Notes under the pieces: model-generated
What the model saw: only the letters and a program-made list of their open reading frames with translations
Database searches by the model: none
What the model was told of the DNA's origin: nothing
Source of the DNA: Minisyncoccia bacterium
GTDB lineage: Bacteria > Patescibacteriota > Minisyncoccia > SW-4-49-11
Direction: 5' to 3'
Assembly (NCBI GenBank): GCA_044356725.1
Contig: JBIKVS010000002.1
Coordinates: 19,264 to 83,263 of the forward strand
Length of the DNA stretch: 64,000 nucleotides
Position numbers and translations under genes: made by a program
Shown here: piece after piece, positions 3,255-64,000 of the stretch
Position numbering within the stretch: position 1 is the stretch's first letter
Layout of the letters: each line of letters starts with the position of its first letter

Positions 3255-3320
3255 ATATAGTATGAATTATTATGCCTATATTAGCATATATTAAGGGTTT
3301 TGTATAGGTGGGAGGGTATA

Positions 3321-3515
3321 ATTATGAATTATGAGTTGTTAATGATACTTATACAGGCTCATTATATTTTAGTCCTCCCTCCAAAGGGAGACAATATTTC
3401 AAGTTGCAAAATAATCCACCACCGGCACTTCGTGCCACCTCCTCCAAAGGAGGACAATATAATACAAAGTTCAGGCGACTAGTAGGTCGCCCCTCAACGA
3501 GGGGAATTTAATTCA
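3321..3515. repeat. Composite GC-rich palindromic repeat element, copy A. It is a member of a window-wide family.
   Basis: Contains gtcctccctccaaagggagacaa, ggcacttcgtgcc, cctcctccaaaggaggac, ggcgactagtaggtcgcc (3474-3491), and cccctcaacgaggggaat. It is preceded by an AT-rich attatgaattatgagttgtt segment. The same modules recur in copies B to J. Confidence 0.7.
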
Positions 3516-3520
3516 AAGTT

Positions 3521-6598: not shown

Positions 6599-6643
6599 AA
6601 TTTATATATATTGTTTTTATATTTTCTATTATATCATATAGTT

Positions 6644-15399: not shown

Positions 15400-15443
15400 A
15401 GATTATTTATATTTTATATATTATATCATAAAAAAATATAAAT

Positions 15444-15658
15444 ATGAATTGTAGTTTGTGAATTGTCAATTATGAATGGTGAATGATGAATTGGTAGTTG
15501 TGCTTTTGTCTCCCTCCAACTACCTACGGCAGTTAAAAAGGGAGACGAAAATTAAGTATAGGCGACTGAAAGGTCGCACCTACTAAATTTAAGTATCGGT
15601 GAGAGCACCGACTCTACGGAATTCATAATTCACCACTCACAATTTATCATTAAAATTG
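15444..15658. repeat. Composite repeat element, copy B, with AT-rich inverted ends. It directly abuts the 3' end of tRNA-Arg.
   Basis: The left end atgaattgtagtttgtgaattgtcaattatgaatggtgaatgatgaatt and right end ggaattcataattcaccactcacaatttatcatt are inverted relative to each other. Internal modules are tgtctccctcc...aaagggagacg, ggcgactgaaaggtcgc (15561-15577), and atcggtgagagcaccgactctacgg. Confidence 0.7.
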
Positions 15659-15731
15659 TGCTCTCACCAAGACTCGAACTTGGATTAGAGGCTTAGGAGT
15701 CCCCGGTTCTATCCTGTTGAACTATGAGAGC
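15659..15731 (-). tRNA. tRNA-Arg (anticodon CCT)
   Basis: The minus-strand sequence is GCTCTCATAGTTCAACAGGATAGAACCGGGGACTCCTAAGCCTCTAATCCAAGTTCGAGTCTTGGTGAGAGCA. The acceptor stem GCTCTCA/TGAGAGC is perfect. The D-stem is GTTC/GAAC, the T-arm is CCAAG-TTCGAGT-CTTGG, and the anticodon loop is CTCCTAA. There is one A:G mismatch at the base of the anticodon stem, and no CCA is encoded. Confidence 0.7.
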
Positions 15732-15793
15732 ATTGGTCTTATTATACTCAAAAAATTAATTTTTGTATATAAGACACCTTAACAGGTTTGGAT

Positions 15794-20479: not shown

Positions 20480-21481
20480 TTATCTTTGATAACCTAATAC
20501 TCTCTTATACTTATCGAGACTATCGAGCATTATACCAGTACCTTTAGCGACACAGTATAATGGATCCTCCGCAATACTACAAGGCACACCTGTTGACTTA
20601 GAAATAAGCTCAGCTATATTCTTAAGCAATGCTCCCCCTCCGGTTATAACAATTCCTTTTTCTATGATATCACTAGCTAGTTCAGGTGGAGTTTCTTGCA
20701 GCACATTTTTGACTGTTTGAATTATTTCTCTTAGCTCGGCTTGCATAGCTATAGTTACCTCTTCTGAAGTAATTGTGACATTTTTAGGCAGACCAGTTAA
20801 GACATCTCGTCCTCTAATATCCATTGTGTCTGTTTCAATTGGAAGAGCTGAGCCAAGTTGTTTTTTGATATCCTCAGCGGTTTGCTCTCCTATAGCTAGG
20901 CTATATTTTTTCTTGATATGAGTCACAATGGCTTCTGTTAATTTATCTCCTGCTACTCTAGCTGAGGCAAAGGCAACAATTCCACCTAGAGAAATAACTC
21001 CTACTTCAGTTGTCCCTCCACCAATATCAATCACCATACTTCCTGAAGGAATATCAATAGGAATCCCAGCTCCTAGGGCTGCTAGAATTGGCTCTTTGAC
21101 TACATAGGCATTCTTTGCCCCTACATTTAGAGCAACTTCAATCACCGCTCTTTTTTCGGTAGAGGTAATGGAGGCAGGTACAGATATAATACAATCTGGT
21201 CTAAAAACTCTAATTCGCCCACTGACTTTATGAATTAAATACCCAATCAAAGCTTCAGTCATACGATAATCAGCAATTACCCCATCTCTAATTGGTCTGA
21301 CTGCTTTAATGCCATCTGGTGTTCGGCCAATCATTTCTTTAGCTTGATTACCAACTGCTAGAATAGAATTAGTATAAAGATCTACTGCTACTACAGATGG
21401 CTCATCCACTACAATACCTTTATTAGGCAAAAATACTAATACATTTGCTGTTCCTAAATCTATACCTATTCTTTTTACCAT
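20480..21481 (-). CDS. mreB: Rod shape-determining protein MreB
   Basis: IGIDLGTANVLVF, DIGGGTTEVGVISLGGIV, and 333 aa are canonical for MreB. Confidence 0.9.
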   Translation of the reverse strand: MVKRIGIDLGTANVLVFLPNKGIVVDEPSVVAVDLYTNSILAVGNQAKEMIGRTPDGIKAVRPIRDGVIADYRMTEALIGYLIHKVSGRIRVFRPDCIISVPASITSTEKRAVIEVALNVGAKNAYVVKEPILAALGAGIPIDIPSGSMVIDIGGGTTEVGVISLGGIVAFASARVAGDKLTEAIVTHIKKKYSLAIGEQTAEDIKKQLGSALPIETDTMDIRGRDVLTGLPKNVTITSEEVTIAMQAELREIIQTVKNVLQETPPELASDIIEKGIVITGGGALLKNIAELISKSTGVPCSIAEDPLYCVAKGTGIMLDSLDKYKRVLGYQR

Positions 21482-21518
21482 ATCAATTCTTAACTATCTT
21501 TATACTATTATATCATCT

Positions 21519-26293: not shown

Positions 26294-26330
26294 AGTTTAT
26301 AAGTTAACTTGAACATAATTATAGCATATA

Positions 26331-26646
26331 TTAAAAAAATTATGAATTGTAGGTTGTGAATGGTAAATTGTGAGTTATGAATTATTAACTGTAGGGCTTT
26401 TGTAAAGAGATATTAGGAGGGGGCGACCTTTCAGTCGCCTGAATCCTCCTCCGTCACCTACGGTGCCACCTCCCCCAAGGGAGGACAGTTCTTATCTTGT
26501 CTCCCTTTGGAGGGCGACAGAGACGGAAACTCAAATCACAAAACACTCCACCCCGTCCAGCATAGCTGTCCACCCCTCAAGAGGGGAATTTTAATACAAA
26601 AGACCCTAAAATTCATAATTTACAATTCACAATTTATAATTAAAGC
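26331..26646. repeat. Composite repeat element, copy C. It is the largest copy, with long AT-rich terminal inverted repeats, and serves as the archetype.
   Basis: The left end ttatgaattgtaggttgtgaatggtaaattgtgagttatgaatt is the inverse of the right end aaattcataatttacaattcacaatttataatt. Internal modules are ggcgacctttcagtcgcc (26422-26439), cctcctccgtcacctacggtgccacctcc, cccccaagggagg, tctccctttggaggg, and cacccctcaagaggggaat. The right end abuts the stop of the pilin-like gene. Confidence 0.75.
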
Positions 26647-32698: not shown

Positions 32699-32740
32699 AA
32701 AGTGATTTATATTTATATTTTTATTATATCATATAAATTT

Positions 32741-32960
32741 TTAATTATGAATGGTGGATAATTTAATTATGAATTGTAAGTTGTGAATTATGAATGGCGC
32801 TTCTGTCTCCCTTCGGAGGGAGTACCCGTAGGGGGAGGGAGGACTTCAGACAACACAAGATAACCCCCTCCTAAACTAAAGTATAGGAGGGGCTTAAGAA
32901 CAATGTCGGCGAGGGCGCCGACTCTACGAACTTACAATTTAGAATTCATAATTATATTAT
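32741..32960. repeat. Composite repeat element, copy D, with AT-rich inverted ends, in the divergent ruvA/prx promoter region
   Basis: Has aattatgaattgtaagttgtgaattatgaatgg and aacttacaatttagaattcataatt ends. Internal modules are ctgtctcccttcggagggagtacccgtagggggagggaggac and aacaatgtcggcgagggcgccgactctacgaa, the latter in inverted orientation relative to copies H and I. Confidence 0.7.
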
Positions 32961-33021
32961 TTTATGCTATAATATATAAGGTATAATTTTATACCCGATT
33001 ATTAAATTAAATAAAATCATT

Positions 33022-33902: not shown

Positions 33903-34646
33903 TTATTGTAAGAATTCATCTATATATGTCTTAAAGGTATCAATTGGTAAAGCTCCAGCAATTCTAATACCTTGAGTTAACTTCCCATCTTCCAGTTTAC
34001 CTATTATGAATCCTGGAGTTCCATTAACACCATTTTGATTAGCAAAATCCATATCAGCTTTTACTTTATCCAAAGTCTCTTCTTCTTTAAGACAGGTATC
34101 AAATTTATTAGTATCTAAGTCTTGAATCTCCCTTGCCAATTCATTAAGCTTGGATTCTTGCATACCCTCTCCTCCACTTTCAGTATTAGCAAAAATTAAA
34201 TCCACATATTCAAAGTAAGCTTGATTTCCTTTTTGCTCATACACACATTGAGCTGCTACAGCTTGTTTAGTAGCTAATGGATCATGAAAATCTAGGGGAT
34301 AATCTTTCCAAGCTAAGATTGCTTTATCTGTATTCACGTATTGTTCTATAATTTCCTTACGAGCCTCATCATGGAATTTTTTACAAAATGGACATTCAAA
34401 ATCACTAAATTCAATAATAGCAATTTGTGATTTTGACTTAGAACCCAGATAAGGCGTATCTTTTGATAAATCTACAGATATATTCCTAGCATCTACTGGG
34501 TCATCTTGTTCTTGCTGGGAATCTGTATTGGAAGCTGTATTATTGTTAGCTCGAGACTGTGCTCCATTATACAAAACTGCCGAAGCAATCATCATACCAG
34601 ATAAAAGAATCGAAGCGACTATTAATAGAATTGATTTATTTTCCAT
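33903..34646 (-). CDS. DsbA-like thiol:disulfide oxidoreductase with an N-terminal membrane anchor
   Basis: The CPFC active site lies in FSDFECPFCKKFHDEARK. An N-terminal TM segment is present. Confidence 0.7.
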   Translation of the reverse strand: MENKSILLIVASILLSGMMIASAVLYNGAQSRANNNTASNTDSQQEQDDPVDARNISVDLSKDTPYLGSKSKSQIAIIEFSDFECPFCKKFHDEARKEIIEQYVNTDKAILAWKDYPLDFHDPLATKQAVAAQCVYEQKGNQAYFEYVDLIFANTESGGEGMQESKLNELAREIQDLDTNKFDTCLKEEETLDKVKADMDFANQNGVNGTPGFIIGKLEDGKLTQGIRIAGALPIDTFKTYIDEFLQ

Positions 34647-34740
34647 ATTATATTATGCTAATTATATAGATATATTATATCATATATTTTTATCTACATC
34701 AAAACACCTTATAAATTTATAATTAAACAACAATATTACT

Positions 34741-36023: not shown

Positions 36024-36134
36024 AAATCGATTCCTAAGAACTGGAACACAAATACTATATCATAAAAAGTAGTTATATACAATTGTCTGTACTAGATGAT
36101 ATGATCGAAATATATAGAGTACTAAATAAGCAAT

Positions 36135-36285
36135 TGTCCTCCTTTGGAGGAGGTGGCACGAAGTGCCGGAGGAGGACTAAGGCTGATGTTGTTGTTATAA
36201 AGTTTATTCTAATATTTTAGTATTTCAAGTATAGTCCTCCCTCCCCCTACGGGTACTCCCTCCAAAGGGAGACAAAATAAAGTTC
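36135..36285. repeat. Composite repeat element, copy E. It carries GC-rich modules only, with no AT-rich ends.
   Basis: gtcctcctttggaggaggtggcacgaagtgccggaggaggac is a nested palindrome. It is followed by gtcctccctccccctacgggtactccctccaaagggagacaaaataaa, the same module as in copies H and I. Confidence 0.7.
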
Positions 36286-36418
36286 AACCTTTTGAATATA
36301 AGAATCTAAAAATAAATCTATGTATGCAAGATGAAACTGATTTGATTTAAGATTTTCAGGATTCACATTGTTTCTCCATTGATCAAATACTATTTTGATT
36401 TCAACTATATCAATCATC

Positions 36419-42726: not shown

Positions 42727-42790
42727 TTCTATATTAAGTGTACTAATTCATAAAGTTAATAAACATATCGACATAGTATTTTAGCACTTT

Positions 42791-42845
42791 GAGTTCCTGG
42801 ACTCCTTGATGGGAGGTGGAACCGTAGGTGTCGTAAGAGTGCAGA
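42791..42845. repeat. Degenerate single-module copy (J) of the repeat family
   Basis: cctggactccttgatgggaggtggaaccgtaggtgtcg resembles the module cctcccttgggggaggtggcaccgtaggtgacgg of copies H and I. Confidence 0.4.
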
Positions 42846-42942
42846 TTTAAATTTCCCTCTATTCCTTAACTTAATAAAAAAATAAAGTCACCCGTAGTAG
42901 AAAAAATGTTTTCCCCTACCCCCTCCCTGTCCGTTCCCAACA

Positions 42943-42980
42943 TAAAAATAATCCCCAAGTTTTTGGGGATTATTTTTATT
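42943..42980. terminator. Bidirectional rho-independent terminator downstream of tRNA-Leu
   Basis: aaaaat-AATCCCCAA-gtttt-TTGGGGATT-atttttatt. The stem is perfect at 9 bp, flanked by an A-run and a T-run. Confidence 0.6.
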
Positions 42981-42981
42981 G

Positions 42982-43064
42982 TGCTGGTGAACGGACTTGA
43001 ACCGTTACGGAGTTGCCTCCAAAGGATTTTGAGTCCTTCGTGTCTACCATTCCACCACACCAGC
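42982..43064 (-). tRNA. tRNA-Leu (anticodon CAA), class II with a long variable arm
   Basis: The minus-strand sequence is GCTGGTGTGGTGGAATGGTAGACACGAAGGACTCAAAATCCTTTGGAGGCAACTCCGTAACGGTTCAAGTCCGTTCACCAGCA. The acceptor stem GCTGGTG/CACCAGC is perfect. The anticodon stem is AAGGA/TCCTT with loop CTCAAAA, the variable arm is long, and the T-arm is CGGTTCAAGTCCG. Confidence 0.85.
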
Positions 43065-43186
43065 TATGTATTATTATAATTGTGGATAACTATGTTAGTA
43101 TACCTGTCTATAAACCCCTTGTCAATAATTTTAAAGTATGTTATAATATAAAAGTATTAGCGATATCAAAATAAAATATTAAAGAT

Positions 43187-47046: not shown

Positions 47047-48317
47047 ACCTTATCAATTAATCCTAGTAACTTAGATACTTCCTGTGGCCAATTATGTTTA
47101 GCTAAATCTTCCTGTTGCCTTGTTAAAAGGTCAACTCTAGCATCTTTACCCTGAATGAAATGTAAGATACTATTTGCAAAGGCCTCAATATCATAATAGG
47201 CAAAAGTAGGAGTGGATGGAACCACACTAATAAATCCACTAGTCTCCGAGGCGATAGTAGGGACGCCTGAGCGAATTGCCTCAAGAGCAGTCAAACCAAA
47301 AGGCTCATTAGGAGATGGCATCACGAATAATTGGCTCGTTTTATAAAGTTGATTTCGTGAATTTTCATTCACCCAACCTGTAAATAAAATATTTCTCTCT
47401 AACTTTCTTTTCGCCACATGCTCTACAATTTCTGGCAATAAATTACCTTCTGTAGACCCATCTCCTGCAATAATAAAAGTCACTTGAGAGTCAATTTGTA
47501 AGACTCTGACCGCCGTCTCGAGAAGGAAAAATAAACCTTTCTGCCCAACTACCCTACCCACAAAAAGCACATTCTTACCCTTATCTAAATGCTCAAAACC
47601 AATTTTTTCCGGCTCAAAACTAATATCATTATAAATAGGATAAATTTTATTCTCATCAATATTATAGTCTTCAATCAAAATCTGCTTAGATATATCAGAG
47701 ACAACTGCTACTTTAGAAGCTTGATAAAAACCTTTTTTTTCCAGCTCATACAAAGCCTTAGCTGTATGGTCATTATTCTGTATATACCCACCCGATCTAT
47801 CTACCTCACTGGAATTAATATGATAATAAAAAGGTGTCTCAATCTTATGACGCAAAAGCAAAAAATGAGCAGGGATAGCCATCCAATCCATACCATAAAT
47901 CACATCAAATTTCTGCTTGTTTTTGGTAAGCCAATCATACACAGCATAGGCATAAGCTCTGGTCAACACGGGAGCATTATTGGGGTATAAAGTTTCTTTT
48001 TTATTCTCACCCTTGCTATACAATAAAGGCCATTTGATATTATTTTGTTTCTTTTTACCTTTTGGGACAAATTCAGTTAAAGTAAAGTCTTCTAGGCCAG
48101 GAATAGGACTGTCTGTTTTCGCATATTTTTTGACAGCAGTTTCTAATGATATTATATCAGGGATATTATCAGCATTATGAGGGACTAGAACTGTAACCTC
48201 AGCACCTTGACTTCTTAGCTCATCTACCAAACTTCTCACCAAAACCCCCAAACCACCTTCCATCAAAGGCAAAATCTCCCAAGATAAAATCAGAATTTTT
48301 TTGGGAGTTTGTACCAT
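47043..48317 (-). CDS. Glycogen-synthase-like GT-B glycosyltransferase (GT4/GT5)
   Basis: N-terminal ILILSWEILPLMEGGLGVLV matches the GlgA K/E-TGGL region. The C-terminal E-x7-E is NEPFGLTALEAIRSGVPTIAS. Confidence 0.75.
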   Translation of the reverse strand: MVQTPKKILILSWEILPLMEGGLGVLVRSLVDELRSQGAEVTVLVPHNADNIPDIISLETAVKKYAKTDSPIPGLEDFTLTEFVPKGKKKQNNIKWPLLYSKGENKKETLYPNNAPVLTRAYAYAVYDWLTKNKQKFDVIYGMDWMAIPAHFLLLRHKIETPFYYHINSSEVDRSGGYIQNNDHTAKALYELEKKGFYQASKVAVVSDISKQILIEDYNIDENKIYPIYNDISFEPEKIGFEHLDKGKNVLFVGRVVGQKGLFFLLETAVRVLQIDSQVTFIIAGDGSTEGNLLPEIVEHVAKRKLERNILFTGWVNENSRNQLYKTSQLFVMPSPNEPFGLTALEAIRSGVPTIASETSGFISVVPSTPTFAYYDIEAFANSILHFIQGKDARVDLLTRQQEDLAKHNWPQEVSKLLGLIDKV

Positions 48318-48388
48318 ATTTATAATATATTATATTTCTTATATTATATCATAAAATTTTAAAATAGGCGAATTTGTGTAAACCAATC

Positions 48389-49909: not shown

Positions 49910-49956
49910 TATTGAATTTAATATTATTATATTTATAATAGCATAAATTAAGAAAA

Positions 49957-50088
49957 GTATGAATGGTGAGTTGTGAGTTCCGTAGGGGCGACCTTACAGT
50001 CGCCTGAGTCCTCCCTACATTAGAGTAATGTCGGCGAGTACATCGACTCTACAAAATTCATAATTTATAATTCACAATTTATAATTAT
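49957..50088. repeat. Composite repeat element, copy F, with AT-rich inverted ends
   Basis: Left end agtatgaatggtgagttgtgagtt. Internal modules are ggcgaccttacagtcgcc (49987-50004) and taatgtcggcgagtacatcgactctaca. The right end aaaattcataatttataattcacaatttataatt abuts the ileS stop codon. Confidence 0.7.
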
Positions 50089-50091
50089 CTC

Positions 50092-52968
50092 CTATTCCAA
50101 AACTGTAATCTGGACTGAGATTTGTTCCTGTTCGAATTTGAAAGTATGAGTATTGGCTGATTCGTCTAAATTACCAAAAACCCATTCTACTACTCCAACT
50201 GGCTGGCTGATAGTATCTTGATATTTATTGATTAAAGCTTGAATCTCTGTTGAAGCTTGTATTGCTAATCTAATATTCTGCTCTTTAGATAATTTGGAGT
50301 TCTTACGGGTAATTTGTAAGTTTCTGATTAACTCTCGGACTAGTCCTTCTTCTTTTAGTTCTGGAGTAATTGTATCATCTAAGCTCAAAGTAAGTCCCTG
50401 ATATTGAATTATATTATCTGAGACTTTTTGAGCTGAGACTTCTTTAACATTAATTTCAGTTTTGATAATCTCTTGCATCCAAGTCTCTAATTCTATACCC
50501 TCGACTCCCATTGCTTGTAATGGTTGTCTAACTTTGATGGCTGAGACTTCTCTTAATTTGAACCCTTGTTCTAGAATTCCTTTGACTTGCTCTACTTTTT
50601 CTAATAATTGGGTATCCACTTGTCCTGTATATTCTGGATATATACTTAGGTGAATGGACTCTACTGCCTCGGCATTTTGACTTACCACTAATTCCTGATA
50701 TAGATATTCTGTGATAAATGGAGCAAATGGAGCTAAGAGATGAATCAAAGTCACAAAATTATTATACAGCGATTGTAAAAATTCTATGTCGCCATTGGCA
50801 AAATCTGTACGAGCGGTGCGAATATACCATTTAGAGATATCCTCCATACAAGCTTTGATTTCTCTTGTAGCTTGTGGGATACGATAATTATCTAATGCCT
50901 GATTGACTTCCTTAACTGCTTGATTAACTCTAGTATATAGCCATTGATTTTTTGGATTTAATGGATTATGTTCTCCGCCTTGAGGTTTCCAATCACTGAC
51001 ATTAGCATAAGTTACCAAAAAGCTATACATATTCCAAAGTGGTAATAGGTATTCTTGAGTAATGATTTTGACTGTTTTAGCTGAGACTGTAGTGTCCTCT
51101 CCAGATGAAATTGGGGTGGAGAAAAAGTTTAACCGCAGAGCATCGGCTCCGAATTGGTCAATCAAATCAATTGGATTGGCATAATTTTTCTTACTCTTTG
51201 ATAGTTTTTGCCCGTCGTCAGCCAATACTAACCCATTTACAATTACACTTTTATAGCTTGGTTTATCGAATAAAGCCGTAGACAATGCTAATAATGAATA
51301 AAACCAACCTCTAGTCTGGTCTACTCCCTCAGCAATATATTCTGCTGGAAATTTGGACTCAAACAATTCCTTGTTCTCAAATGGATAGTGAAATCTAGCA
51401 AATGGCATCGCTCCAGAATCATACCAGACATCTAATACATCTGGAATTCGGTGATACTCTTCTCCGTCTATATTAAAGGTAATATCATCTACAAAGGGTC
51501 GATGCGGGTCATTAAGTTTAACCCCAGATAATTCCTCAAGCTCAGCGAATGAGCCTATAATTTTAGTTTTCCCTGATTCAGACTTCCAAACTGGCAAAGG
51601 AGTACCCCAATATCTGGTACGAGAAATTCCCCAATCTTTGACTTCTTTTAGCCAATTACCAAATCGCCCTTCTTTGATATGTTCAGGAATCCAATTGATA
51701 CTATTATTATTAAAAACTAATTTTTCTCTAAGAGTACTCATAGATACATACCAAGATGTAATTGGCTTATAAATTAAAGGGGTATTAGTCCGCCAACACA
51801 TTGGTAAATCATGCTCATAATCCTCTACTTTGAAGAGTTTATTAGCTTGTTTTAAGTCCTCAATTATATATTTATTAGCTTTGCGGTAAAACATACCAGC
51901 ATAATTAGGAATAGCATCAGTAAAATCTCCCTGATCATTAATAACATCCACCGATACTATACCTACCTTTTGGAAAATTTCATTATCCTCCGCACCATAA
52001 GGGGCGAGATGCACAATTCCAGTTCCTGAATCAGTAGTCACATAATCTCCTTCATAAATCACAAACGCATTTTCTTTACCCACAAAATAATCAAATAAAG
52101 GCTTATAGGTCTTGCCTAATAAATCCTGCCCCTTATATTCTGCGATTACCTCATATTCACTGCCGAAAACACTCTCCGCTAAGTCACGAGCTACAATATA
52201 TTGCTCTTCAGTGTTAGGAATTTTAACCTGAATATAGTCAATCTTACTATTCACAGCCAGAGCAAAGTTAGTCGGTAAAGTCCAAGGTGTAGTAGTCCAA
52301 GCTAATACAAAAACATTAGGGCTATCTGTTAGCTCAAATTTAATCGTCACGGCTGGATCGACTTGTTTTTTATATCCTCCAAGAGCCACTTCAGCATTAG
52401 ATAAAGTTGTCCCCGCTCGAGTGGAATATGGGACAACCTTGAAGCCTTCATAAAGTAGTCCTTTATTATATAATTCAGACAAGCTCCACCAAATAGATTC
52501 TATATAATTATCATCCATAGTGGCATATTCCTCATCGGAATTGGTGAGTCTTCCAATTTTATATTCAAGCTCAATAATTCCTTCTCGGTGTGCAGAGACA
52601 GACTCTCGGCAAAGTTGATTGAATTTATCGATACCATAGTCTTCTATGTCTTTTTTTTGTTGGAAACCTAATTTCTTCTCCACCTCATATTCTACTGGGA
52701 TACCCTGACAATCCCAACCAAGACTACGAGTTACTCGATATCCTTTCATAGTCCAATATCTTGGCATTATGTCTTTTAAAGCAAATGTTAGCATATGTCC
52801 AGCATGAGGTTCCCCATTAGCTGTAATTGGTCCATCATAAAAAGCTTTAGTCCTGTCAGCCGGTCTAGAATCTATAGATTTTTGTAGAATATTTTCAACT
52901 TTCCAAAACTCTAAAGTTTGTTTTTCTAACTCTGCAAAAGATACATTATAGGGTGGCTTGGTGAACAT
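50092..52968 (-). CDS. ileS: Isoleucyl-tRNA synthetase
   Basis: FYDGPITANGEPHAGHMLT matches the E. coli IleRS HIGH region, and GWDCQGIPVEYEVE matches GWDCHGLPIE. The KMSKS motif is GQKLSKSKKN, and WGISRTRYWGTPLPVW is present. It is 958 aa. Confidence 0.9.
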   Translation of the reverse strand: MFTKPPYNVSFAELEKQTLEFWKVENILQKSIDSRPADRTKAFYDGPITANGEPHAGHMLTFALKDIMPRYWTMKGYRVTRSLGWDCQGIPVEYEVEKKLGFQQKKDIEDYGIDKFNQLCRESVSAHREGIIELEYKIGRLTNSDEEYATMDDNYIESIWWSLSELYNKGLLYEGFKVVPYSTRAGTTLSNAEVALGGYKKQVDPAVTIKFELTDSPNVFVLAWTTTPWTLPTNFALAVNSKIDYIQVKIPNTEEQYIVARDLAESVFGSEYEVIAEYKGQDLLGKTYKPLFDYFVGKENAFVIYEGDYVTTDSGTGIVHLAPYGAEDNEIFQKVGIVSVDVINDQGDFTDAIPNYAGMFYRKANKYIIEDLKQANKLFKVEDYEHDLPMCWRTNTPLIYKPITSWYVSMSTLREKLVFNNNSINWIPEHIKEGRFGNWLKEVKDWGISRTRYWGTPLPVWKSESGKTKIIGSFAELEELSGVKLNDPHRPFVDDITFNIDGEEYHRIPDVLDVWYDSGAMPFARFHYPFENKELFESKFPAEYIAEGVDQTRGWFYSLLALSTALFDKPSYKSVIVNGLVLADDGQKLSKSKKNYANPIDLIDQFGADALRLNFFSTPISSGEDTTVSAKTVKIITQEYLLPLWNMYSFLVTYANVSDWKPQGGEHNPLNPKNQWLYTRVNQAVKEVNQALDNYRIPQATREIKACMEDISKWYIRTARTDFANGDIEFLQSLYNNFVTLIHLLAPFAPFITEYLYQELVVSQNAEAVESIHLSIYPEYTGQVDTQLLEKVEQVKGILEQGFKLREVSAIKVRQPLQAMGVEGIELETWMQEIIKTEINVKEVSAQKVSDNIIQYQGLTLSLDDTITPELKEEGLVRELIRNLQITRKNSKLSKEQNIRLAIQASTEIQALINKYQDTISQPVGVVEWVFGNLDESANTHTFKFEQEQISVQITVLE

Positions 52969-53387
52969 ATTATTTTATTATATAACTAATCTATTATTAA
53001 TATGTAGTGTAGCATAAGTCAGTATAGTATTCAAGATAAAAAAACCTAATCTTCTGTATTAGATATATATAATGTCTTTCGTGTTCTATAAATTTCTTTC
53101 GAACATTGTATCGTCAGATATACAGTGAGAAAAAATTTGATAGAACTACAGAAAGACCAGATACTAGGATACATATAATTTAACTTCCTTTTCAATTCAC
53201 CTAAAAAGGTATATAATATTTACAAGCCTTCAGAATGGGGTTGCGAAAAATTGAAGCCCACCTTGACTTACAGGGAAAAATATATTATTTTCCGATGTTT
53301 ATATAAAGGGATTCAGACGCAGTATAGCAATATACATCACCCCTGCATTGAGGGCTTTTTATATTGGGGAAAGAAAAAAGCCGACCA

Positions 53388-53420
53388 CTGGGTAGTCGGA
53401 AAGGAGTCTTTGTCTTGAGT
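53388..53420 (-). terminator. Rho-independent terminator on the minus strand, downstream of the small-ORF locus
   Basis: On the minus strand the sequence reads CCGACTACCCAGTGGTCGG followed by cttttttctt. Confidence 0.45.
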
Positions 53421-53431
53421 GATTAGGTAAA

Positions 53432-53617
53432 TTACCGATCTCTCCAATCTGGGATTACTGGTGCTTCGATTACTTCGCCACAATCGGCTTGATATAGCTT
53501 AGTTGCAGGAGGAAATGCATAGACATGTTTTTGTGGTTCTTCATTGGTTGGGTTACCAGTTGAACCAAAATTTTGCTCTTGATCCATCTCTTTGTTAGTT
53601 GATCGAACATTCCCCAT
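53432..53617 (-). CDS. Candidate small acidic protein (61 aa). Its start codon overlaps a consensus -10 box.
   Basis: ORF MGNVRSTNKEMDQEQNFGSTGNPTNEEPQK... A GGTGGAG SD-like element lies 8 nt upstream. A terminator follows. The composition is not AT-biased. No homology is evident. Confidence 0.25.
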   Translation of the reverse strand: MGNVRSTNKEMDQEQNFGSTGNPTNEEPQKHVYAFPPATKLYQADCGEVIEAPVIPDWRDR

Positions 53618-58174: not shown

Positions 58175-58211
58175 ATATTTTTGATTAAGTTAATAATATA
58201 ATTATATTATA

Positions 58212-58245
58212 TCATAAAAAAGCCCGTGATGAAATACCACGAGCC
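58212..58245 (-). terminator. Rho-independent terminator on the minus strand
   Basis: On the minus strand the sequence reads GCTCGTGG-tatttca-TCACGGGC followed by ttttttatgat. Confidence 0.5.
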
Positions 58246-59592: not shown

Positions 59593-59694
59593 TTTAAAGA
59601 ACTCCCTCTCGCTGAAGCGAGAATAGATTAACCCTACACTTATACCATATACTCCTCTCTTTGTCTACGATGTTCCTCATCTTATTTAGTATTT

Positions 59695-59815
59695 AAATTC
59701 CCCTCTTGAGGGGTGGATTCCTGCTATGTTTACATAGTAGGGAGACGGGGTGGAATAAAATATCAAAACAACACTCCACCCCACCCTGCGGGTACCCCTC
59801 AAGAGGGGAATTTAA
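59695..59815. repeat. Composite repeat element, copy G, in the divergent ispA/valS promoter region
   Basis: aattcccctcttgaggggtgg and gtacccctcaagaggggaattta are inverted copies of the CCCCTC-AAG-AGGGG hairpin module. Between them lies gggagacggggtggaat...ctccaccccaccctgcgggtac. Confidence 0.65.
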
Positions 59816-59963
59816 GTTCAGCACACATCAGAATCAGACTATAAAGCCAAATTCTCCAAAAGAGGATAGTTTATAGCTAATATATACATATTGTATACTT
59901 TCATTGAATAAAATCTCTAGATTTGCTATAATTAAACTTAAATATAGCTTAATCTAACAAACT

Positions 59964-62327
59964 ATGCCTCTTGTATCCAAATACGAAATTACCGAACGCG
60001 AAGCCTATTGGCGTGAATTTTGGGCGAAACAGAATATCTATGCCTTTGATGAGAATTCGGAGAAGCCTATTTTCTCCGTAGATACTCCTCCACCCTATGT
60101 CTCAGCAGATCACTTACATCCAGGACATATTATGAGCTATTCTCAAGCTGAATTTGTCGTACGATTCAAGCGAATGCAAGGTTATAATGTGTTTTATCCA
60201 ATGGGATTTGATAATAATGGACTGCCAACTGAAAGGCATGTAGAGAAAAAATATAAAATCAAGAATAAAGATGCCATTAGTCGCTCTGAATTTATCAAAT
60301 TATGTCTCGAAGAAACTCAAAAAGGAATCCAAACCTATCGCAATCTCTGGTCACTTTTAGGAGTTTCAGTTGATTGGTCTAAGACTTACTCCTCTATCAA
60401 TCCTCACTCCCAGAAAATTGCTCAGTGGTCATTTTTAGATTTATATAAAAAAGGCTTATTAACTCAAAGAGAAGAGCCAATAATGTGGGATATTAGCTTT
60501 CAATCGGCTCTAGCTCAGACTGATCTTGAAGACTCCGAGCAAGACTCTCACCTCAATGATATAATCTTCAAAGCCGAAGAATCTGGTGAAGACTTAATTA
60601 TAGCTACCACCAGACCCGAGTTAATCCCAGCAGCAGTGGCTTTGTTCTTCCACCCAGAAGATAGCCGATATCAGCATCTTATTGGTACTAAAGCTATCGC
60701 CCCGATTTCTGGACACACTGTGCCAATTTTGACAGACGAGAGCGTCGACAAAGATTTTGGAACAGGTTTGATGATGGTTTGTACTTGGGGAGATACTGAG
60801 GATATAGCCAAATGGAAAAAATATAATCTGGAGACTAGACTAATCTTCAATCAAAAAGGGATTTTGAATGACCTAGCAGGAGCTTATGCTGGAGGACATA
60901 TTAGTAAATTAAGAAAGACGATATTAGAAGATTTACAAACCCAAAACTTATTAGTCAAACAAACCCCCATCACCCACACCGTCCAAGTTTCTGAAAGGTC
61001 AGGTACTCCAATAGAATTTATCCTGACCAAACAATGGTTTATCAATGTAGTAGAGCATAAAGAAGCCCTATTAGAGCAAGGTAAAAAACTCAATTGGTAT
61101 CCAAAGAGAATGTTTTCTATCTACTCTGACTGGGTTAGCTCACTCAAATGGGACTGGTGCATCTCCAGACAAAGATATTATGGAGTTCCAATACCAGTCT
61201 GGTATCATAAACAAACTGGGGAAGTAATCCTACCTCAAGAAGATGAATTGCCAGTTGACCCAACCGAATATACCCCTAGAGGCTATAATGCTGAAGATTT
61301 AATCCCTGAGCACGATGTGCTAGACACTTGGATGACCTCCTCAATGTCGCCTGAAATTGGAGCCAAATTAGTAGCAGACACGGAGATTAGTGCTAAATTA
61401 TTCCCATCCAGCCTGCGACCTCAAGCCTTCGAGATAATCCGAACATGGCTATTCTATACAGTCACTAAAGCCTACTTTCATCATAATAGTCTACCCTTTA
61501 GTGATGTGATGATATCAGGACACGGACTAGACAATCAAGGACGGAAAATTAGCAAAAGACTAGGCAATTTCACCCCACCAGAGCAAACTATAGCAACCTA
61601 TGGAGCAGATGCTATGAGATATTGGGCTACAGGTACCACTCTGGGAGAGAATATCCGATACAATGAAGATGAAATCAAAAAAGGCAAGAAAACAGTCAAT
61701 AAACTATTCAATGTTGGTAAATTTTCTGAATTACATCTGCAGAATTTCACTCTACCCGCGCAAACACCTGAACTAGAATTAATCGATAAATGGATTTTAG
61801 CTGAATTAAATCAAACTATTAAGACCGCAACTGAGAGCTTCGAGCAATATGAATACTACAGAGCAAAAACCGCTGTGGATAGCCTATTCTGGAATAAACT
61901 TACCGATTATTATCTAGAATTAATCAAATACAGACTATATGATGAGACCCCAGAAGGCCAAAATTCCCGCCTAGCAGCTCAGTATACTCTATATATAGTA
62001 TTAGAACAGATACTCAAATTATATGCCCCAATTTTGCCATTTATAACTGAGGAGATATATCACGGACTATATGCTCAATCAGAAAATGAAAGTATTCATC
62101 AATCCAATTGGCCAAAGACAAATACAAATTGGCAACTCTCTAGTGACGAACACAATCTAATGACAGATATTCTAGCAGTCATCGAGTCCGTAAGAGCTTA
62201 TAAATCTCAGAATAGTATTTCTCTAGGAAAGGAAATTGAAACTTATACCTATACTTCTACTCAAGACTTAAGCCCATACGAAGACTTCCTAGCCAAGGCT
62301 CTCAGAGTTGGCAAGTTGGTGAAGTAG
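59964..62327 (+). CDS. valS: Valyl-tRNA synthetase, short form without a C-terminal coiled-coil
   Basis: HIGH region PPPYVSADHLHPGH. ATTRPELIPAAVALFFHPEDSRY matches ValRS TTRPETMLGDTAVAV.PED.RY. WCISRQRYYGVPIPVWY and the KMSKS-like GRKISKRLGN are also present. It is 787 aa. Confidence 0.9.
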   Translation: MPLVSKYEITEREAYWREFWAKQNIYAFDENSEKPIFSVDTPPPYVSADHLHPGHIMSYSQAEFVVRFKRMQGYNVFYPMGFDNNGLPTERHVEKKYKIKNKDAISRSEFIKLCLEETQKGIQTYRNLWSLLGVSVDWSKTYSSINPHSQKIAQWSFLDLYKKGLLTQREEPIMWDISFQSALAQTDLEDSEQDSHLNDIIFKAEESGEDLIIATTRPELIPAAVALFFHPEDSRYQHLIGTKAIAPISGHTVPILTDESVDKDFGTGLMMVCTWGDTEDIAKWKKYNLETRLIFNQKGILNDLAGAYAGGHISKLRKTILEDLQTQNLLVKQTPITHTVQVSERSGTPIEFILTKQWFINVVEHKEALLEQGKKLNWYPKRMFSIYSDWVSSLKWDWCISRQRYYGVPIPVWYHKQTGEVILPQEDELPVDPTEYTPRGYNAEDLIPEHDVLDTWMTSSMSPEIGAKLVADTEISAKLFPSSLRPQAFEIIRTWLFYTVTKAYFHHNSLPFSDVMISGHGLDNQGRKISKRLGNFTPPEQTIATYGADAMRYWATGTTLGENIRYNEDEIKKGKKTVNKLFNVGKFSELHLQNFTLPAQTPELELIDKWILAELNQTIKTATESFEQYEYYRAKTAVDSLFWNKLTDYYLELIKYRLYDETPEGQNSRLAAQYTLYIVLEQILKLYAPILPFITEEIYHGLYAQSENESIHQSNWPKTNTNWQLSSDEHNLMTDILAVIESVRAYKSQNSISLGKEIETYTYTSTQDLSPYEDFLAKALRVGKLVK

Positions 62328-62340
62328 CGATAATTATAAA

Positions 62341-62573
62341 TGTTGAGTTGTGAATTTCATAGCGGAGCCGTCCCTATGGGAGTTAAACGTTTATCCCTCC
62401 ATATCGTAGAGTCGGTGCCCTCGCCGACATTGTTCTAATGTAGGGTAGACCTTTCAGTAGCCTATGTCCTCCCTCCCCCTGCGGGTACTCCCTCCAAAGG
62501 GAGACAAAATAAAAACTATCCTCCCTTGGGGGAGGTGGCACCGTAGGTGACGGAGGAGGACTATTGTATAAAA
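62341..62573. repeat. Composite repeat element, copy H, upstream-flanking the tRNA pair. It is a near-identical direct repeat of copy I.
   Basis: cgtagagtcggtgccctcgccgacattgttcta ... gtagacctttcagtagcc ... gtcctccctccccctgcgggtactccctccaaagggagacaaaataaaaactatcctcccttgggggaggtggcaccgtaggtgacggaggaggact. It is about 95 percent identical to 62905-63063 over about 165 bp. Confidence 0.8.
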
Positions 62574-62661
62574 GTCATAACTAAAAATTTTTAAACGAAG
62601 AAAACACCGGTCATTGACCAGTGCTCATAGATTGAATTAAAGAGGGAAATCCCTAGTAAAA

Positions 62662-62732
62662 TCGAAGCGGCAGGATTTGAACCTACGACCCCCTGCATGT
62701 GCAGGTGCGCTACCAGACTGCGCTACGCCCCG
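62662..62732 (-). tRNA. tRNA-like gene with an atypical 4-nt anticodon loop (ACAT). It may be a tRNA-Met(CAT) variant or a pseudogene.
   Basis: The minus-strand sequence is CGGGGCG-TA-GCGC-AGTCTGGTA-GCGC-A-CCTGC-ACAT-GCAGG-GGGTC-GTAGG-TTCAAAT-CCTGC-CGCTTCG-A. The acceptor (with two G:U pairs), D-arm, variable loop, and T-arm are canonical. It is 71 nt instead of about 74, and the shortfall is entirely in the anticodon loop. Confidence 0.5.
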
Positions 62733-62741
62733 ATGGAGAAA

Positions 62742-62817
62742 CGGTGAGTGGTGGATTCGAACCCCTGAAACTTATCACGAATTGAGACAAGTAGCTCCCA
62801 AGAGCAACTACCCCACC
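62742..62817 (-). tRNA. tRNA-like gene with a canonical acceptor and TTCGAAT T-loop but non-canonical D and anticodon arms. The anticodon is unresolved.
   Basis: The minus-strand sequence is GGTGGGG-TAGTTGCTCTTGGGAGCTAC-TTGTCTCAATTCGTGATAAG-TTTC-AGGGG-TTCGAAT-CCACC-ACTCACC-G. The acceptor pairs 6/7. The D region folds as GTTGCTC-TTGG-GAGCTAC with a 4-nt loop. The anticodon region folds as ACTTGTC-(9 nt)-GATAAGT. It lies 9 nt from the previous tRNA-like gene. Confidence 0.4.
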
Positions 62818-62883
62818 ATAATCCGTATATTATTATACTTATATTTTCTTAATTGTCAAGAGTTGAGGCGGTACAATTATAGA

Positions 62884-63063
62884 TTATGAATTATTAATGA
62901 TAAATTCGTAGAGTCGGTGCCCTCGCCGACATTGTTCTAGTGTAGGGGCGACCTTTCAGTCGCCTGTGTCCTCCCTCCCCCTGCGGGGACTCCCTCCAAA
63001 GGGAGACAAAATAAAAACTGTCCTCCCTTGGGGGAGGTGGCACCGTAGGTGACGGAGGAGGAC
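62884..63063. repeat. Composite repeat element, copy I, downstream-flanking the tRNA pair
   Basis: cgtagagtcggtgccctcgccgacattgttctag ... ggcgacctttcagtcgcc (62947-62964) ... gtcctccctccccctgcggggactccctccaaagggagacaaaataaaaactgtcctcccttgggggaggtggcaccgtaggtgacggaggaggact. Confidence 0.8.
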
Positions 63064-63088
63064 TGAGCTAAATTTACCCTATCCCCAC

Positions 63089-64000
63089 CTACCTATACAA
63101 ATACTTCTGAAATTCTATGAATAAATCTCGAATAGACTCAACCCCACCCAAATTCTGTTGAGCCTCTGCCAGAGAATGATATTTATTCTGTAATAAAATA
63201 GCTAATCTATCCTGATCCAATTCCTCGAATCCAGATTGAATATATTTATCCAACACAAATTGCAAAAATTGCTTCTGAGACTCACTTAAATCATCTAAAA
63301 TATCCTGCTTGGATTGCAAAACTCTCATTTCCCTTGAAATTGGTTTATTCTCAGCATTAAAGACATATTCCAAAACATCAAACAAATCACTATTCTCCGC
63401 ATCCACTAATTTTTGTAAAGTTTTCAGCTTATCTTGACTAAACCCAGCTTGACCTAATTTTTCCAAAAGCTGTTTACGAGTAATTGGACTACCCCAAATA
63501 GCCCTTAATTCCTGCTCTGTGGTGAATAATTTTGGCAATTCCCCAAATAAATTATGCATAAATTCTTCCACTGAAACCGGTCTTCCTTGAGCATCCCAAA
63601 AAGAAGTCGAGACCATAGACTGAATTTCCCTAATTTTACCATCTCTTAATTTCACTTTAATCTTTTTATTCTCACCTACTATAGGAGGAATTGTAGCTCC
63701 AGTTGGAGGATATACTTTAGTCCCAGAATCTCCCACAGGACTTACAGACCCATCTTCTATAACTCCACCTTCCCACTTTGGATCCGCAAACAACCGATAA
63801 GCCTCCACAAAATCATAAATAGTAAAGAAATCCTTACCCTCAAAGACTCTCGTGCCCCTACCAATAATTTGTTTGAACTCAATCATAGAATTAATCGGTC
63901 GCATCAAGACAATATTCCTGACATTACGAGCATCCACCCCAGTAGATAATTTTTGAGAAGTAGTCAAAATAGTTGGGATAGTCTTCTCGTTATCCTGAAA
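63089..64000 (-). CDS. Type I restriction enzyme R subunit (HsdR)-like helicase, C-terminal about 300 aa. The N-terminus lies beyond the window end.
   Basis: The reading frame stays open to position 64000 (FQDNEKTIPTILTTSQKLSTGVDARNVRNIVLMRPINSMIEFKQIIGRGTRV). Helicase motif VI is QIIGRGTR, and the C-terminal helical domain is typical of Type I HsdR. A Type III Res subunit is the alternative. Confidence 0.55.
   Translation of the reverse strand, partial: FQDNEKTIPTILTTSQKLSTGVDARNVRNIVLMRPINSMIEFKQIIGRGTRVFEGKDFFTIYDFVEAYRLFADPKWEGGVIEDGSVSPVGDSGTKVYPPTGATIPPIVGENKKIKVKLRDGKIREIQSMVSTSFWDAQGRPVSVEEFMHNLFGELPKLFTTEQELRAIWGSPITRKQLLEKLGQAGFSQDKLKTLQKLVDAENSDLFDVLEYVFNAENKPISREMRVLQSKQDILDDLSESQKQFLQFVLDKYIQSGFEELDQDRLAILLQNKYHSLAEAQQNLGGVESIRDLFIEFQKYLYR

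What the first reader, a model, noticed from the sequence alone, without database searches (positions are those of the whole stretch)
62341..63063. Two ~95 percent identical ~165-bp direct copies of the repeat cassette bracket a tandem pair of tRNA-like genes, immediately next to an HsdR-like restriction gene
Copies H (62341-62573) and I (62884-63063) carry the same module order in the same orientation: M2, M1, M3, M4. They differ at only a few positions, for example gtagacctttcagtagcc versus ggcgacctttcagtcgcc, and gggtact versus ggggact. The two tRNA-like genes at 62662-62817 lie between them.

Other copies in the window are much more diverged, so this pair looks like a recent duplication or the two ends of a small composite unit. 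Direct repeats flanking tRNA genes next to a defence gene are a classic signature of an integration or excision junction. Recombination between H and I would delete the tRNA pair.
Basis: seen in the sequence. Interest (0 to 1): 0.55.

Follow-up and report, generated by a model that had tools for sequence, protein, structure and literature searches.

The report
Scattered hairpin repeats flank anticodon-less tRNA-like genes
The two 160-bp repeats are real, but they belong to a hairpin-repeat family found in almost every long gap between genes of this tiny uncultured (CPR) bacterium and are not integration scars; the more unusual thing is what lies between them, a conserved pair of tRNA-shaped RNA genes that kept the tRNA body but lost a usable anticodon loop.

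Summary
The core observation holds. Window 62404-62562 and 62906-63064 are 159-nt direct repeats with 7 mismatches (95.6% identical). They bracket two tRNA-like genes and lie next to the 3' end of an HsdR gene.

The integration-junction reading is not supported.
- The repeats belong to a mosaic family of short hairpin modules, similar in style to REP/BIME elements. Modules occur in 8 of the 10 long intergenic gaps of this Patescibacteria (CPR) window.
- Other copies match single modules at 95-98% identity. The H/I pair stands out by its colinear length, not by its identity.
- The repeats flank the tRNA-like unit, not the island, and do not overlap a tRNA 3' end. No integrase or transposase was found.

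The bracketed unit is ancestral. It consists of a perfect sigma-70 promoter, RNA A (tRNA-Val-derived), RNA B (tRNA-Pro-like) and a terminator. It sits downstream of valS in nine related species, none of which has the repeat pair.

B keeps a fully covarying cloverleaf, but its "anticodon loop" is only 3-4 nt, or is replaced by 28-110-nt inserts. A keeps a covarying acceptor/T helix, but its anticodon arm differs from species to species. I read both as selected, non-decoding tRNA-shaped RNAs.

The locus is a hot spot for defence genes. The window carries a type I R-M island on one side of the unit, and a relative carries a Type ISP enzyme on the other side.

The parts
59964..62327 (+). valS (787-aa ValRS). 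The closest homologues outside CPR in the genome scan are DPANN archaea. It is the conserved left anchor of the locus.
62330..62403 (+). Left part of cassette H: an AT-rich run of heptamer-type repeats plus the extra module 'M2'. Copy I has no counterpart.
62404..62562 (+). Repeat copy H, a four-module block: M1 hairpin GTCGGTG-CCCT-CGCCGAC, a degraded M3 hairpin, and M4a and M4b.
62602..62626 (-). Intrinsic terminator of the tRNA-like unit: an 11-bp stem followed by a T run.
   Evidence: Equivalent terminators in relatives.
62642..62655 (-). Small trailer hairpin (AGGGA-UUU-CCCU). It is conserved as GAGGGA..UCCCUC in L004, L005, L006 and L095.
62662..62732 (-). RNA B: a tRNA-Pro-like cloverleaf (C1-G72, A73). 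Its anticodon stem CCUGC/GCAGG is capped by a 4-nt loop, ACAU.
62742..62817 (-). RNA A: a tRNA-Val-derived gene with a 6-bp 'anticodon' stem and a 9-nt loop UCAAUUCGU. In this genome its D and T stems carry mismatches.
62832..62859 (-). Consensus sigma-70 promoter TTGACA-16-TATAAT (12 of 12 positions) that drives A and B.
   Evidence: Conserved in relatives.
62876..62905 (+). AT-rich heptamer-type array that starts cassette I. It lies at about the point where similarity to L005 and L006 upstream of the promoter ends.
62906..63064 (+). Repeat copy I, the same four-module block with an intact M3 hairpin. On the minus strand, M4b offers a terminator-like hairpin and T run just downstream of hsdR.
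63089..64000 (-). 3' part of hsdR, the first gene of a lineage-specific type I R-M island (HsdR, Fic, HsdS, KAP NTPase, HsdM). The island continues beyond the window.

Best explanation
H and I are two copies of one four-module block (M1-M3-M4a-M4b). The block belongs to a genome-wide family of short, hairpin-forming intergenic repeat modules. In style the family resembles the REP/BIME mosaics of enterobacteria, and the cassettes are often bounded by inverted arrays of AATTCAT/ATGAATT-type heptamers.

The two copies occupy the two spacers on either side of an older, vertically inherited transcription unit on the minus strand. That unit runs: consensus promoter, RNA A (tRNA-Val-derived), RNA B (tRNA-Pro-like, 4-nt 'anticodon' loop), terminator.

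Copy H sits in the spacer after valS, where relatives carry other module combinations. Copy I sits where a lineage-specific type I R-M island abuts the promoter of the unit.

Inferred steps:
- The block was most likely copied from one spacer to the neighbouring one by local duplication or gene conversion. The copies have since diverged by about 4%, and the M3 hairpin of H has decayed.
- Like the other cassettes, the block probably acts as 3'-end hairpins or insulators between closely packed transcription units. It is not a recombination site for an integrase.
- RNAs A and B are probably transcribed and processed like tRNAs. This follows from the conserved promoter and terminator, the covarying acceptor/T helices, and the invariant G18G19 and T54-C56 positions in B.
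- B cannot decode. I read A and B as selected tRNA-shaped RNAs that act outside decoding. What they actually do is unknown.
For: Repeat family:
- Modules of H/I hit only the long intergenic gaps (3255-3520, 15400-15793, 26294-26646, 32699-33021, 36024-36418, 42727-43186, 49910-50091, 62328-63088), in both orientations and in different orders. Module identities are 95-98%.
- The same modules occur in other species at 93-100% identity, although the valS DNA is only 75-88% identical.
- The M4b hairpins are 94.5% paired, with 2 compensatory pairs. Both strands of copy I fold with z = -4.1.

Ancestry of the tRNA-like unit:
- The unit lies downstream of valS in L004/L090, L005, L006, L007/L096, L009, L093, L095, L097 and L098. 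None of these has the 159-nt block or a flanking pair.
- In the relatives where the called genes were listed (L095-L098), the genes beyond the unit are a carotenoid synthase plus UbiA, or NadE, instead of R-M genes.

Selection on the RNAs:
- B: 98.6% of cells form a pair, 10 of 21 pairs show compensatory changes, and 0 of 500 shuffles reach this. Its loops are ACAU, AAU, UUCG, UUAG, UAU, UACG and UUCG.
- A: the acceptor/T helix is 93.3% paired, 9 of 12 pairs are compensatory, and 0 of 500 shuffles reach this.
- The promoter matches the consensus at 12 of 12 positions.
- The best E. coli match of B is tRNA-Pro.
- The other two tRNAs in the window are normal.
Against: - No enzyme that could move the repeats was found, so how they spread is unknown.
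- The terminator-like hairpin of M4b faces the incoming transcript in only about half of the cassettes (reading). A simple one-directional terminator role therefore does not hold.
- The homology between H and I ends exactly at module boundaries. That also fits two separate insertions of a composite mobile element.
- There are no expression, processing or aminoacylation data for A or B.
- A in this genome has mismatches in its D and T stems and may be decaying.
- Only 64 kb of this genome is visible. I could not check whether canonical tRNA-Pro and tRNA-Val genes exist elsewhere, or how many cassettes the genome holds.
Confidence: 0.65

Rival explanations
1. H and I are att-like junctions, or the two ends of a small composite mobile unit that carries the tRNA-like genes, created by integration next to the defence island.
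For: The repeats are direct and 96% identical, and they bracket tRNA-like genes next to a lineage-specific R-M island. The locus accepts defence genes in other species too.
Against: The unit is syntenic in nine relatives that lack the repeats. The repeats flank the tRNA-like genes, not the island, and do not include a tRNA 3' end. The repeat is one instance of a dispersed family. No integrase was found. Contigs that span the region, from several samples, all show the same arrangement.
Confidence: 0.05
2. H and I are two independent insertions of one roughly 160-nt composite mobile element (MITE-like or REP-like), not a local copy.
For: The homology starts and ends exactly at module boundaries (start of M1, end of M4b). 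A similar M1...M4a...M3 order recurs in another species, at L093 7003-7158. Modules are better conserved across species than valS is.
Against: No third full-length copy exists among the eight other cassette sites of the window, in the extra 3 kb of L001, or in about 100 kb of relatives' loci. The only two full copies lie in adjacent spacers. No target-site duplication was seen, and no transposase was found.
Confidence: 0.2
3. The cassettes, especially the 97-nt M4 domain, are genes for structured small RNAs related to the Whalefall-1 motif, rather than DNA-level repeats.
For: Whalefall-1 (RF01762) gives sub-threshold hits of 25.0 and 23.4 bits on the minus strand of M4a. The hairpins show compensatory changes. 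The folds are stable.
Against: The scores are below the gathering threshold of 37 bits. Modules shuffle in order and orientation relative to the flanking genes. No promoter is evident in the cassettes as read. Both strands fold equally well.
Confidence: 0.1
4. A and B are just decaying tRNA pseudogenes with no function.
For: The anticodon loops cannot decode. In this window A has mismatches in its D and T stems and is not called by any tRNA tool. In the more distant relative L102 the B-like gene looks degenerate.
Against: The helices are kept through many compensatory changes in species that all lack a normal loop. The tertiary-contact bases are invariant in B. The consensus promoter and the terminator are conserved in all ten species.
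Confidence: 0.12

Closest known systems
REP/BIME elements (repetitive extragenic palindromes and their mosaic arrays) of Enterobacteria and Pseudomonas
   Same: Short imperfect palindromes, strictly extragenic, present in both orientations, combined in variable mosaics, often at the 3' ends of genes, and many copies per genome. The description of REP/BIME comes from my own knowledge.
   Different: The sequences are unrelated. Several distinct hairpin types (M1, M3, M4a, M4b and others) are combined with heptamer arrays. No RAYT-type transposase was seen in the 64 kb. The host is a reduced CPR genome, and one literature search for REP elements in that phylum found nothing relevant.
STRR heptamer repeats and short dispersed repeats of heterocystous cyanobacteria
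   Same: Tandem 7-nt repeats in intergenic DNA next to hairpin repeats. The comparison rests on my own knowledge. The AATTCAT/ATGAATT arrays are seen.
   Different: The heptamer sequence and the phylum differ. Here the arrays often sit as inverted pairs around the hairpin cassette.
Bacillus cereus tRNA-Other, a pseudo-tRNA that flanks a genomic island and does not act in translation (PMC3399842)
   Same: A tRNA-derived gene next to a variable island, kept in the genome without serving in decoding. That paper proposes that inactivated tRNAs can be recruited to other roles.
   Different: According to the paper, tRNA-Other still has an anticodon (Trp). Here the loop itself is reduced to 3-4 nt or replaced by inserts. 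There are two genes in one operon, and they are conserved across about ten CPR species with covariation.
tRNA-gene att sites of integrative islands
   Same: tRNA-type genes next to a lineage-specific defence island, together with direct repeats.
   Different: [quoted passage not shown] None of these three features is met here.
Whalefall-1 RNA motif (RF01762; PMC2864571)
   Same: It shares the UCUCCCUUUGGAGGGAG hairpin and the GGAGGGAGGAC tail with the minus strand of M4a. It is known only from environmental DNA.
   Different: The scores of 25 and 23.4 bits are below the 37-bit threshold, so this is not a member by Rfam's criterion.
tRNA mimics that keep only part of the tRNA: the tmRNA tRNA-like domain and bacterial YrlA Y RNAs (PMC4201824)
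   Same: An acceptor/T-arm 'top half' is kept while the anticodon function is absent.
   Different: A and B are stand-alone cloverleaf-sized RNAs whose ends lie in the acceptor stem. There is no tag reading frame (ARAGORN finds no tmRNA) and no Ro-binding stem.

Membership tests
Decoding tRNA (Rfam RF00005) | Cloverleaf that scores above the Rfam gathering threshold | tested here: met
   B scores 50.6 bits against a threshold of 29. A in the window gives no hit even at E <= 10, although its homologues in L006, L009, L004 and L007 score 58.8, 53.1, 49.8 and 33.7 bits.
Decoding tRNA (Rfam RF00005) | A 7-nt anticodon loop with U33 and a usable anticodon | tested here: not met
   The B loop is ACAU, 4 nt. 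It is 3-4 nt in six relatives, or replaced by 28-110-nt inserts. The A loop is 9 nt in the window. ARAGORN reports B as 'tRNA-???'.
att junction of a tRNA-targeting integrative island | The direct repeat equals the 3' part of the tRNA gene and brackets the island | tested here: not met
   The repeats lie 99 nt and 88 nt outside the tRNA-like genes and bracket those genes, not the R-M island.
att junction of a tRNA-targeting integrative island | An integrase or recombinase gene next to the junction | tested here: not met
   None was found in the window or among the genes called in the next 10 kb. The far end of the island could not be read.
att junction of a tRNA-targeting integrative island | The repeat is confined to the two junctions | tested here: not met
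   Its modules occur in seven further intergenic gaps of the window and in other species.
REP/BIME-type extragenic palindromic repeats | Short imperfect palindromes, extragenic, multi-copy, in both orientations and in mosaic arrangements | tested here: met
   All nhmmer and BLAST module hits in the window fall in intergenic gaps, on both strands and in variable order.
REP/BIME-type extragenic palindromic repeats | An associated RAYT (Y1 HUH) transposase | tested here: inconclusive
   A Pfam scan of the window ORFs found none, but only 64 kb of the genome is visible.
MITE | Terminal inverted repeats together with target-site duplications | tested here: inconclusive
   Inverted heptamer arrays bound the cassettes at 15400-15793, 26294-26646, 32699-33021 and 49910-50091. 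H and I lack the right-hand array, and no target-site duplication was seen at their ends.
Whalefall-1 RNA (RF01762) | Score at or above the Rfam gathering threshold (37 bits) | tested here: not met
   25.0 and 23.4 bits.
tmRNA (standard or two-piece) | A tRNA-like domain together with a tag reading frame, detected by ARAGORN | tested here: not met
   ARAGORN finds no tmRNA in the window or in the relatives' loci.
Group I intron-containing tRNA of Patescibacteria (PMC13011429) | A group I intron core in the anticodon loop | tested here: not met
   Rfam finds no intron family in the units. The inserts are at most about 110 nt and are unique sequences.
Pseudo-tRNA or tRNA-like small RNA acting outside translation (such as tRNA-Other) | Expressed, but absent from polysomes and poorly aminoacylated | not testable with these tools
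   This needs RNA data. Only the conservation of the promoter and terminator and the covariation could be shown.

The most novel reading that the evidence does not exclude
A and B represent a clade-wide, selected class of stand-alone tRNA-shaped RNAs without an anticodon. The acceptor, T and D parts are kept by compensatory evolution. The anticodon arm is a free slot: 3-4-nt caps, 8-10-nt loops, or 28-110-nt inserts that in several species carry a self-complementary GGCGCC or GGGCCC at the tip. Such RNAs would be made and matured like tRNAs but would act outside decoding, for example as carriers of an amino acid for a non-ribosomal reaction, or as decoys or regulators for proteins that bind tRNA. 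They mark a hot spot where defence genes are inserted next to valS.
Probability: 0.45. Interest if true: 0.75.

Novelty: new variant of a known kind. Interest (0 to 1): 0.5.

Why it matters
For the repeats: they show that even a very small, gene-dense CPR genome fills its few long spacers with a shuffling set of hairpin modules. These modules are better conserved across species than a housekeeping gene. That raises two questions: how they spread without a visible transposase, and whether they insulate tightly packed operons.

For the tRNA-like pair: compensatory evolution keeps a complete cloverleaf whose anticodon loop is only 3-4 nt. This is direct sequence evidence for a job of the tRNA shape that has nothing to do with reading codons, in organisms with minimal translation and regulatory equipment. 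The idea can be tested with existing lake metatranscriptomes and with simple in vitro assays.

A practical point: tRNA finders report B as 'tRNA-???' or mis-assign it (ARAGORN calls the L095 copy tRNA-Ile). This could distort tRNA counts for these genomes.

Tried and rejected
- **Alternative junctions via HsdR.** A homology search with the C-terminal 303 aa did not return the exact protein, only a 93% fragment on a 1.1-kb contig. The test for an H/I recombinant could therefore not be made this way.
- **Metagenome pattern scan.** A scan for promoter plus T arm gave 11 loci, of which only L090 (identical to L004) and L093 are true homologues. The rest are ordinary tRNA genes with a similar promoter.
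- **Viral contigs.** No match to the M4b module or to a B-type pattern.
- **Two-piece tmRNA.** Considered because of the tandem tRNA-like halves and the G3:U70 pair in the window's B. Rejected: ARAGORN finds no tmRNA, there is no tag frame, and G3:U70 is not conserved (pair 3-69: GC in 6 sequences, GU in 1).
- **Degenerate group I introns as the source of the inserts.** No Rfam intron hit, and the inserts are too short and are unique sequences.
- **Small proteins encoded in the cassettes.** The 52-aa and 49-aa ORFs in H and I differ by non-conservative changes and have different ends. The 52-aa gene called in L001 is unrelated.
- **One-directional terminator role for the cassettes.** The orientation relative to the flanking genes is inconsistent.
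- **Contig ends as evidence of rearrangement.** L002 ends inside H (window 62433) and L003 ends at the 3' end of B (62663). These are most simply assembly breaks at repeats.
- **Literature.** Searches for CPR tRNA-like RNAs and for CPR REP elements found nothing on either feature.
Full report
**1. What the sequence shows.**
The window is AT-rich (34.6% G+C) and comes from an uncultured Patescibacteria/CPR bacterium. Its ValRS C-terminal half is 85-93% identical to MAGs labelled Saccharibacteria, Parcubacteria and Paceibacteria, from samples that include muddycreek and ME2003. The next best matches are DPANN archaea at 43-50%.

Window 62404-62562 and 62906-63064 match over 159 nt with 7 mismatches and no gaps. 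This is the longest repeat in the window.

The 62341-62403 part of copy H ('M2') has no counterpart in copy I.

**2. What the repeats are.**
The window is tightly packed. A crude gene map leaves only ten gaps longer than 180 nt. BLAST and nhmmer searches with the H/I sequence hit these gaps and nothing else: 3255-3520, 15400-15793, 26294-26646, 32699-33021, 36024-36418, 42727-43186, 49910-50091 and the two spacers of the finding.

The hits are to single modules of 20-70 nt:
- M1: GTCGGTG-CCCT-CGCCGAC
- M3: GGCGAC-CUUUCA-GUCGCC
- M4a: a CCCC/GGGG hairpin plus a CUCCCU/AGGGAG hairpin
- M4b: a CCUCCC/GGGAGG hairpin, a GGCAC/GUGCC hairpin and a GGAGGAGGAC tail

The modules appear in different orders and on both strands. 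In several gaps they lie between inverted arrays of AATTCAT/ATGAATT-type heptamers.

Identity at module level is 95-98%, the same as between H and I. In M3, copy I is closer to the copy at 49982 than to H, and three of the four M3 differences in H break the hairpin.

The same modules occur in other species at 93-100% identity, although valS DNA is only 75-88% identical. The M4b hairpins are kept through compensatory changes: 94.5% of cells pair and 2 pairs are compensatory. Copy I folds equally well on both strands, with z = -4.1 on each.

No Rfam family reaches its threshold. The nearest is Whalefall-1, at 25 bits against a threshold of 37. That motif is known only from environmental DNA (PMC2864571).

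No transposase, integrase or RAYT is encoded in the window or in the next 10 kb. The short ORFs inside H and I are not conserved as proteins.

In kind, this is a REP/BIME-like mosaic repeat family. That comparison rests on my own knowledge.

**3. What lies between the repeats.**
A complete transcription unit sits on the minus strand:
- a 12-of-12 consensus promoter, TTGACA-16-TATAAT, at 62859-62832;
- RNA A at 62817-62742;
- a 9-nt spacer;
- RNA B at 62732-62662;
- a small hairpin;
- a strong intrinsic terminator at 62626-62602.

B is a clear tRNA by Rfam (50.6 bits). However, its anticodon stem CCUGC/GCAGG is closed by only four bases, ACAU. ARAGORN reports it as 'tRNA-???'. Its best E. coli match is tRNA-Pro, at 78-81%.

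A is not called by any tool in this genome.

**4. Comparison with relatives.**
I collected the valS neighbourhood from nine related species with ValRS at least 84% identical: L004 (identical to L090), L005, L006, L007 (identical to L096), L009, L093, L095, L097 and L098.

All nine carry the same unit, convergent with valS, with the same promoter and a terminator. None has the 159-nt block or a flanking pair.

The spacer between valS and the unit holds different modules in each species, and none in L004. The unit is therefore ancestral and the repeats are later arrivals.

*Gene B.* Seven species have a 3-4-nt cap in place of the anticodon loop:

| Source | Cap |
|---|---|
| window | ACAU |
| L005 | AAU |
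| L007 | UUCG |
| L093 | UUAG |
| L095 | UAU |
| L097 | UACG |
| L098 | UUCG |

L009 has a 28-nt extension, and L004 and L006 have an insert of about 110 nt.

On the seven short versions, 98.6% of helix cells pair. Ten of 21 pairs show changes on both sides. No shuffle out of 500 reaches this, and slid controls drop to 42-51% paired. G18G19 and T54-C56 are invariant.

*Gene A.* The acceptor/T helix is 93.3% paired, with 9 of 12 pairs compensatory. Its anticodon arm differs widely between species:
- a normal-looking GAC loop in L006;
- UAC in L004;
- GGC in L093;
- 8-9-nt loops in L097, L005 and the window;
- a long hairpin in L007;
- an extended 15-nt loop in L098;
- a 3-nt loop in L009.

A covariance model built from B finds nothing else in the window or the loci except these units. 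In more distant relatives it also finds:
- two B-like genes in L101 (ValRS 65%), each with its own TTGACA motif upstream and a hairpin plus T run downstream, and with CCA encoded. One has a 9-10-nt loop and the other a large insert.
- a degenerate B-like gene in L102 (ValRS 64%).

The other two tRNAs of the window are normal.

The simplest reading is that the tRNA body, but not the anticodon, is under selection. Because B cannot decode, this points to tRNA-shaped RNAs that act outside decoding.

The closest described case is the B. cereus pseudo-tRNA tRNA-Other, which also flanks a genomic island (PMC3399842). Searches of the paper library found no description of such RNAs in CPR. The known Patescibacteria tRNA oddity is group I introns (PMC13011429), and none is detectable here.

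**5. The defence neighbourhood.**
In L095-L098 the genes beyond the promoter are small ORFs, NadE, a carotenoid synthase and UbiA. In this genome a type I R-M island (HsdR, Fic, HsdS, KAP NTPase, HsdM) takes that place.

Similarity to L005 and L006 upstream of the promoter ends at about 62875, where the heptamer array of cassette I begins.

HsdR has only 72% or lower identity to anything but one fragment, and its next relatives are in unrelated phyla.

In L093 a Type ISP/MmeI-like R-M gene is inserted on the other side, between valS and the unit. It is also followed by cassettes.

The H/I repeats, however, are not the junction signature:
- they flank the conserved unit;
- they do not include tRNA sequence;
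- they belong to a dispersed family;
- cassettes also lie inside the island, in L001 between HsdR and Fic.

**6. Variation.**
The exact ValRS protein is on seven contigs. The 99.5-kb contig (two samples, plus three similar places) and L001 (another sample) have the same 762-nt distance between valS and hsdR. L001 is 100% identical over the region.

Two contigs end at window 62433 (inside H) and at 62663. Assemblers typically break at repeats.

I could not inspect reads, so a rare recombinant cannot be excluded.

**7. Verdict.**
Most likely the four-module block was copied locally between two neighbouring spacers, and the copies have since diverged by about 4%.

The integration-junction idea is not supported.

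The part worth following up is the bracketed operon of two tRNA-shaped RNAs that lack a working anticodon loop and are kept by compensatory evolution across a CPR clade. Their function is unknown. I favour a role that uses the acceptor/T half of the tRNA (maturation and CCA addition, possibly charging or protein binding). This part is inference only.

Noticed in passing
L004 7313-7409, L006 7388-7498, L009 7746-7796, L101 6765-6900 (all minus strand): Where gene B carries a long insert instead of a short cap, the tip of the inserted arm holds a self-complementary GC hexamer: GGCGCC in L004, L006 and L009, and GGGCCC in L101. The inserts are otherwise unique sequences. This might allow loop-loop dimers or serve as a protein site.
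   Followed up: partly
L093 586-3918 (+): A Type ISP/MmeI-like restriction-modification ORF (Pfam Type_ISP_C, N6_Mtase) sits between valS and the tRNA-like unit in this relative. It is followed by repeat cassettes at 3441-3560 and 4309-4446. This is a second, independent defence insertion at the same locus.
   Followed up: partly
L101 6595-6670 and 6765-6900 (minus strand); L102 5454-5532 (minus strand): More distant relatives (ValRS 64-65%) also carry B-like genes (acceptor CGGGACG/CGUCCCG, A73) next to valS. In L101 there are two, each with a TTGACA motif upstream, a hairpin plus T run downstream, and an encoded CCA. ARAGORN calls one of them tRNA-Phe, with an off-register anticodon.
   Followed up: partly
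window 15400-15793, 26294-26646, 32699-33021, 49910-50091: Cassettes are bounded by inverted arrays of 7-nt repeats (ATGAATT, GTGAATT or TAAATTG on one side and their complements on the other), in the manner of terminal inverted repeats. H and I have only the left-hand array.
   Followed up: partly
window 62466-62507 and 62968-63009 (minus strand): Sub-threshold similarity to the Whalefall-1 RNA motif (RF01762; 23.4 and 25.0 bits against a threshold of 37). That motif is so far known only from whale-fall metagenomes. It may be the same kind of repeat module from an uncultured relative.
   Followed up: partly
window 6606-6660, 15398-15452, 21472-21516, 32701-32755, 34645-34684, 48308-48352, 58177-58216: A recurring ATTATATCATA motif (complement TATGATATAAT, an extended -10 box) lies directly upstream of minus-strand operons. 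It is probably the standard promoter of this genome.
   Followed up: no
window 59964-62327; also 50092-52968: The ValRS is a short 787-aa form. Outside CPR, its nearest relatives in the genome scan are DPANN and other archaea (33-50% identity). In many relatives valS stays linked to ileS and a glutaredoxin gene.
   Followed up: no
window 59593-59963 and 26294-26646: Further module types not present in H or I (for example AAATTCCCCTCTTGAGGGGTGGA...GGGGTGGA) recur in other gaps.
   Followed up: no
window 52969-53616: The second-longest gap (648 nt) contains no module of the family and no Rfam hit. It has two terminator-like hairpins, and its content is unexplained.
   Followed up: no
L095 6679-6752 (minus strand): ARAGORN calls the B homologue of the closest relative 'tRNA-Ile (tat)'. 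The arm actually folds as a 5-7-bp stem with a UAU triloop. This is an example of how these genes can be mis-annotated as decoding tRNAs.
   Followed up: yes
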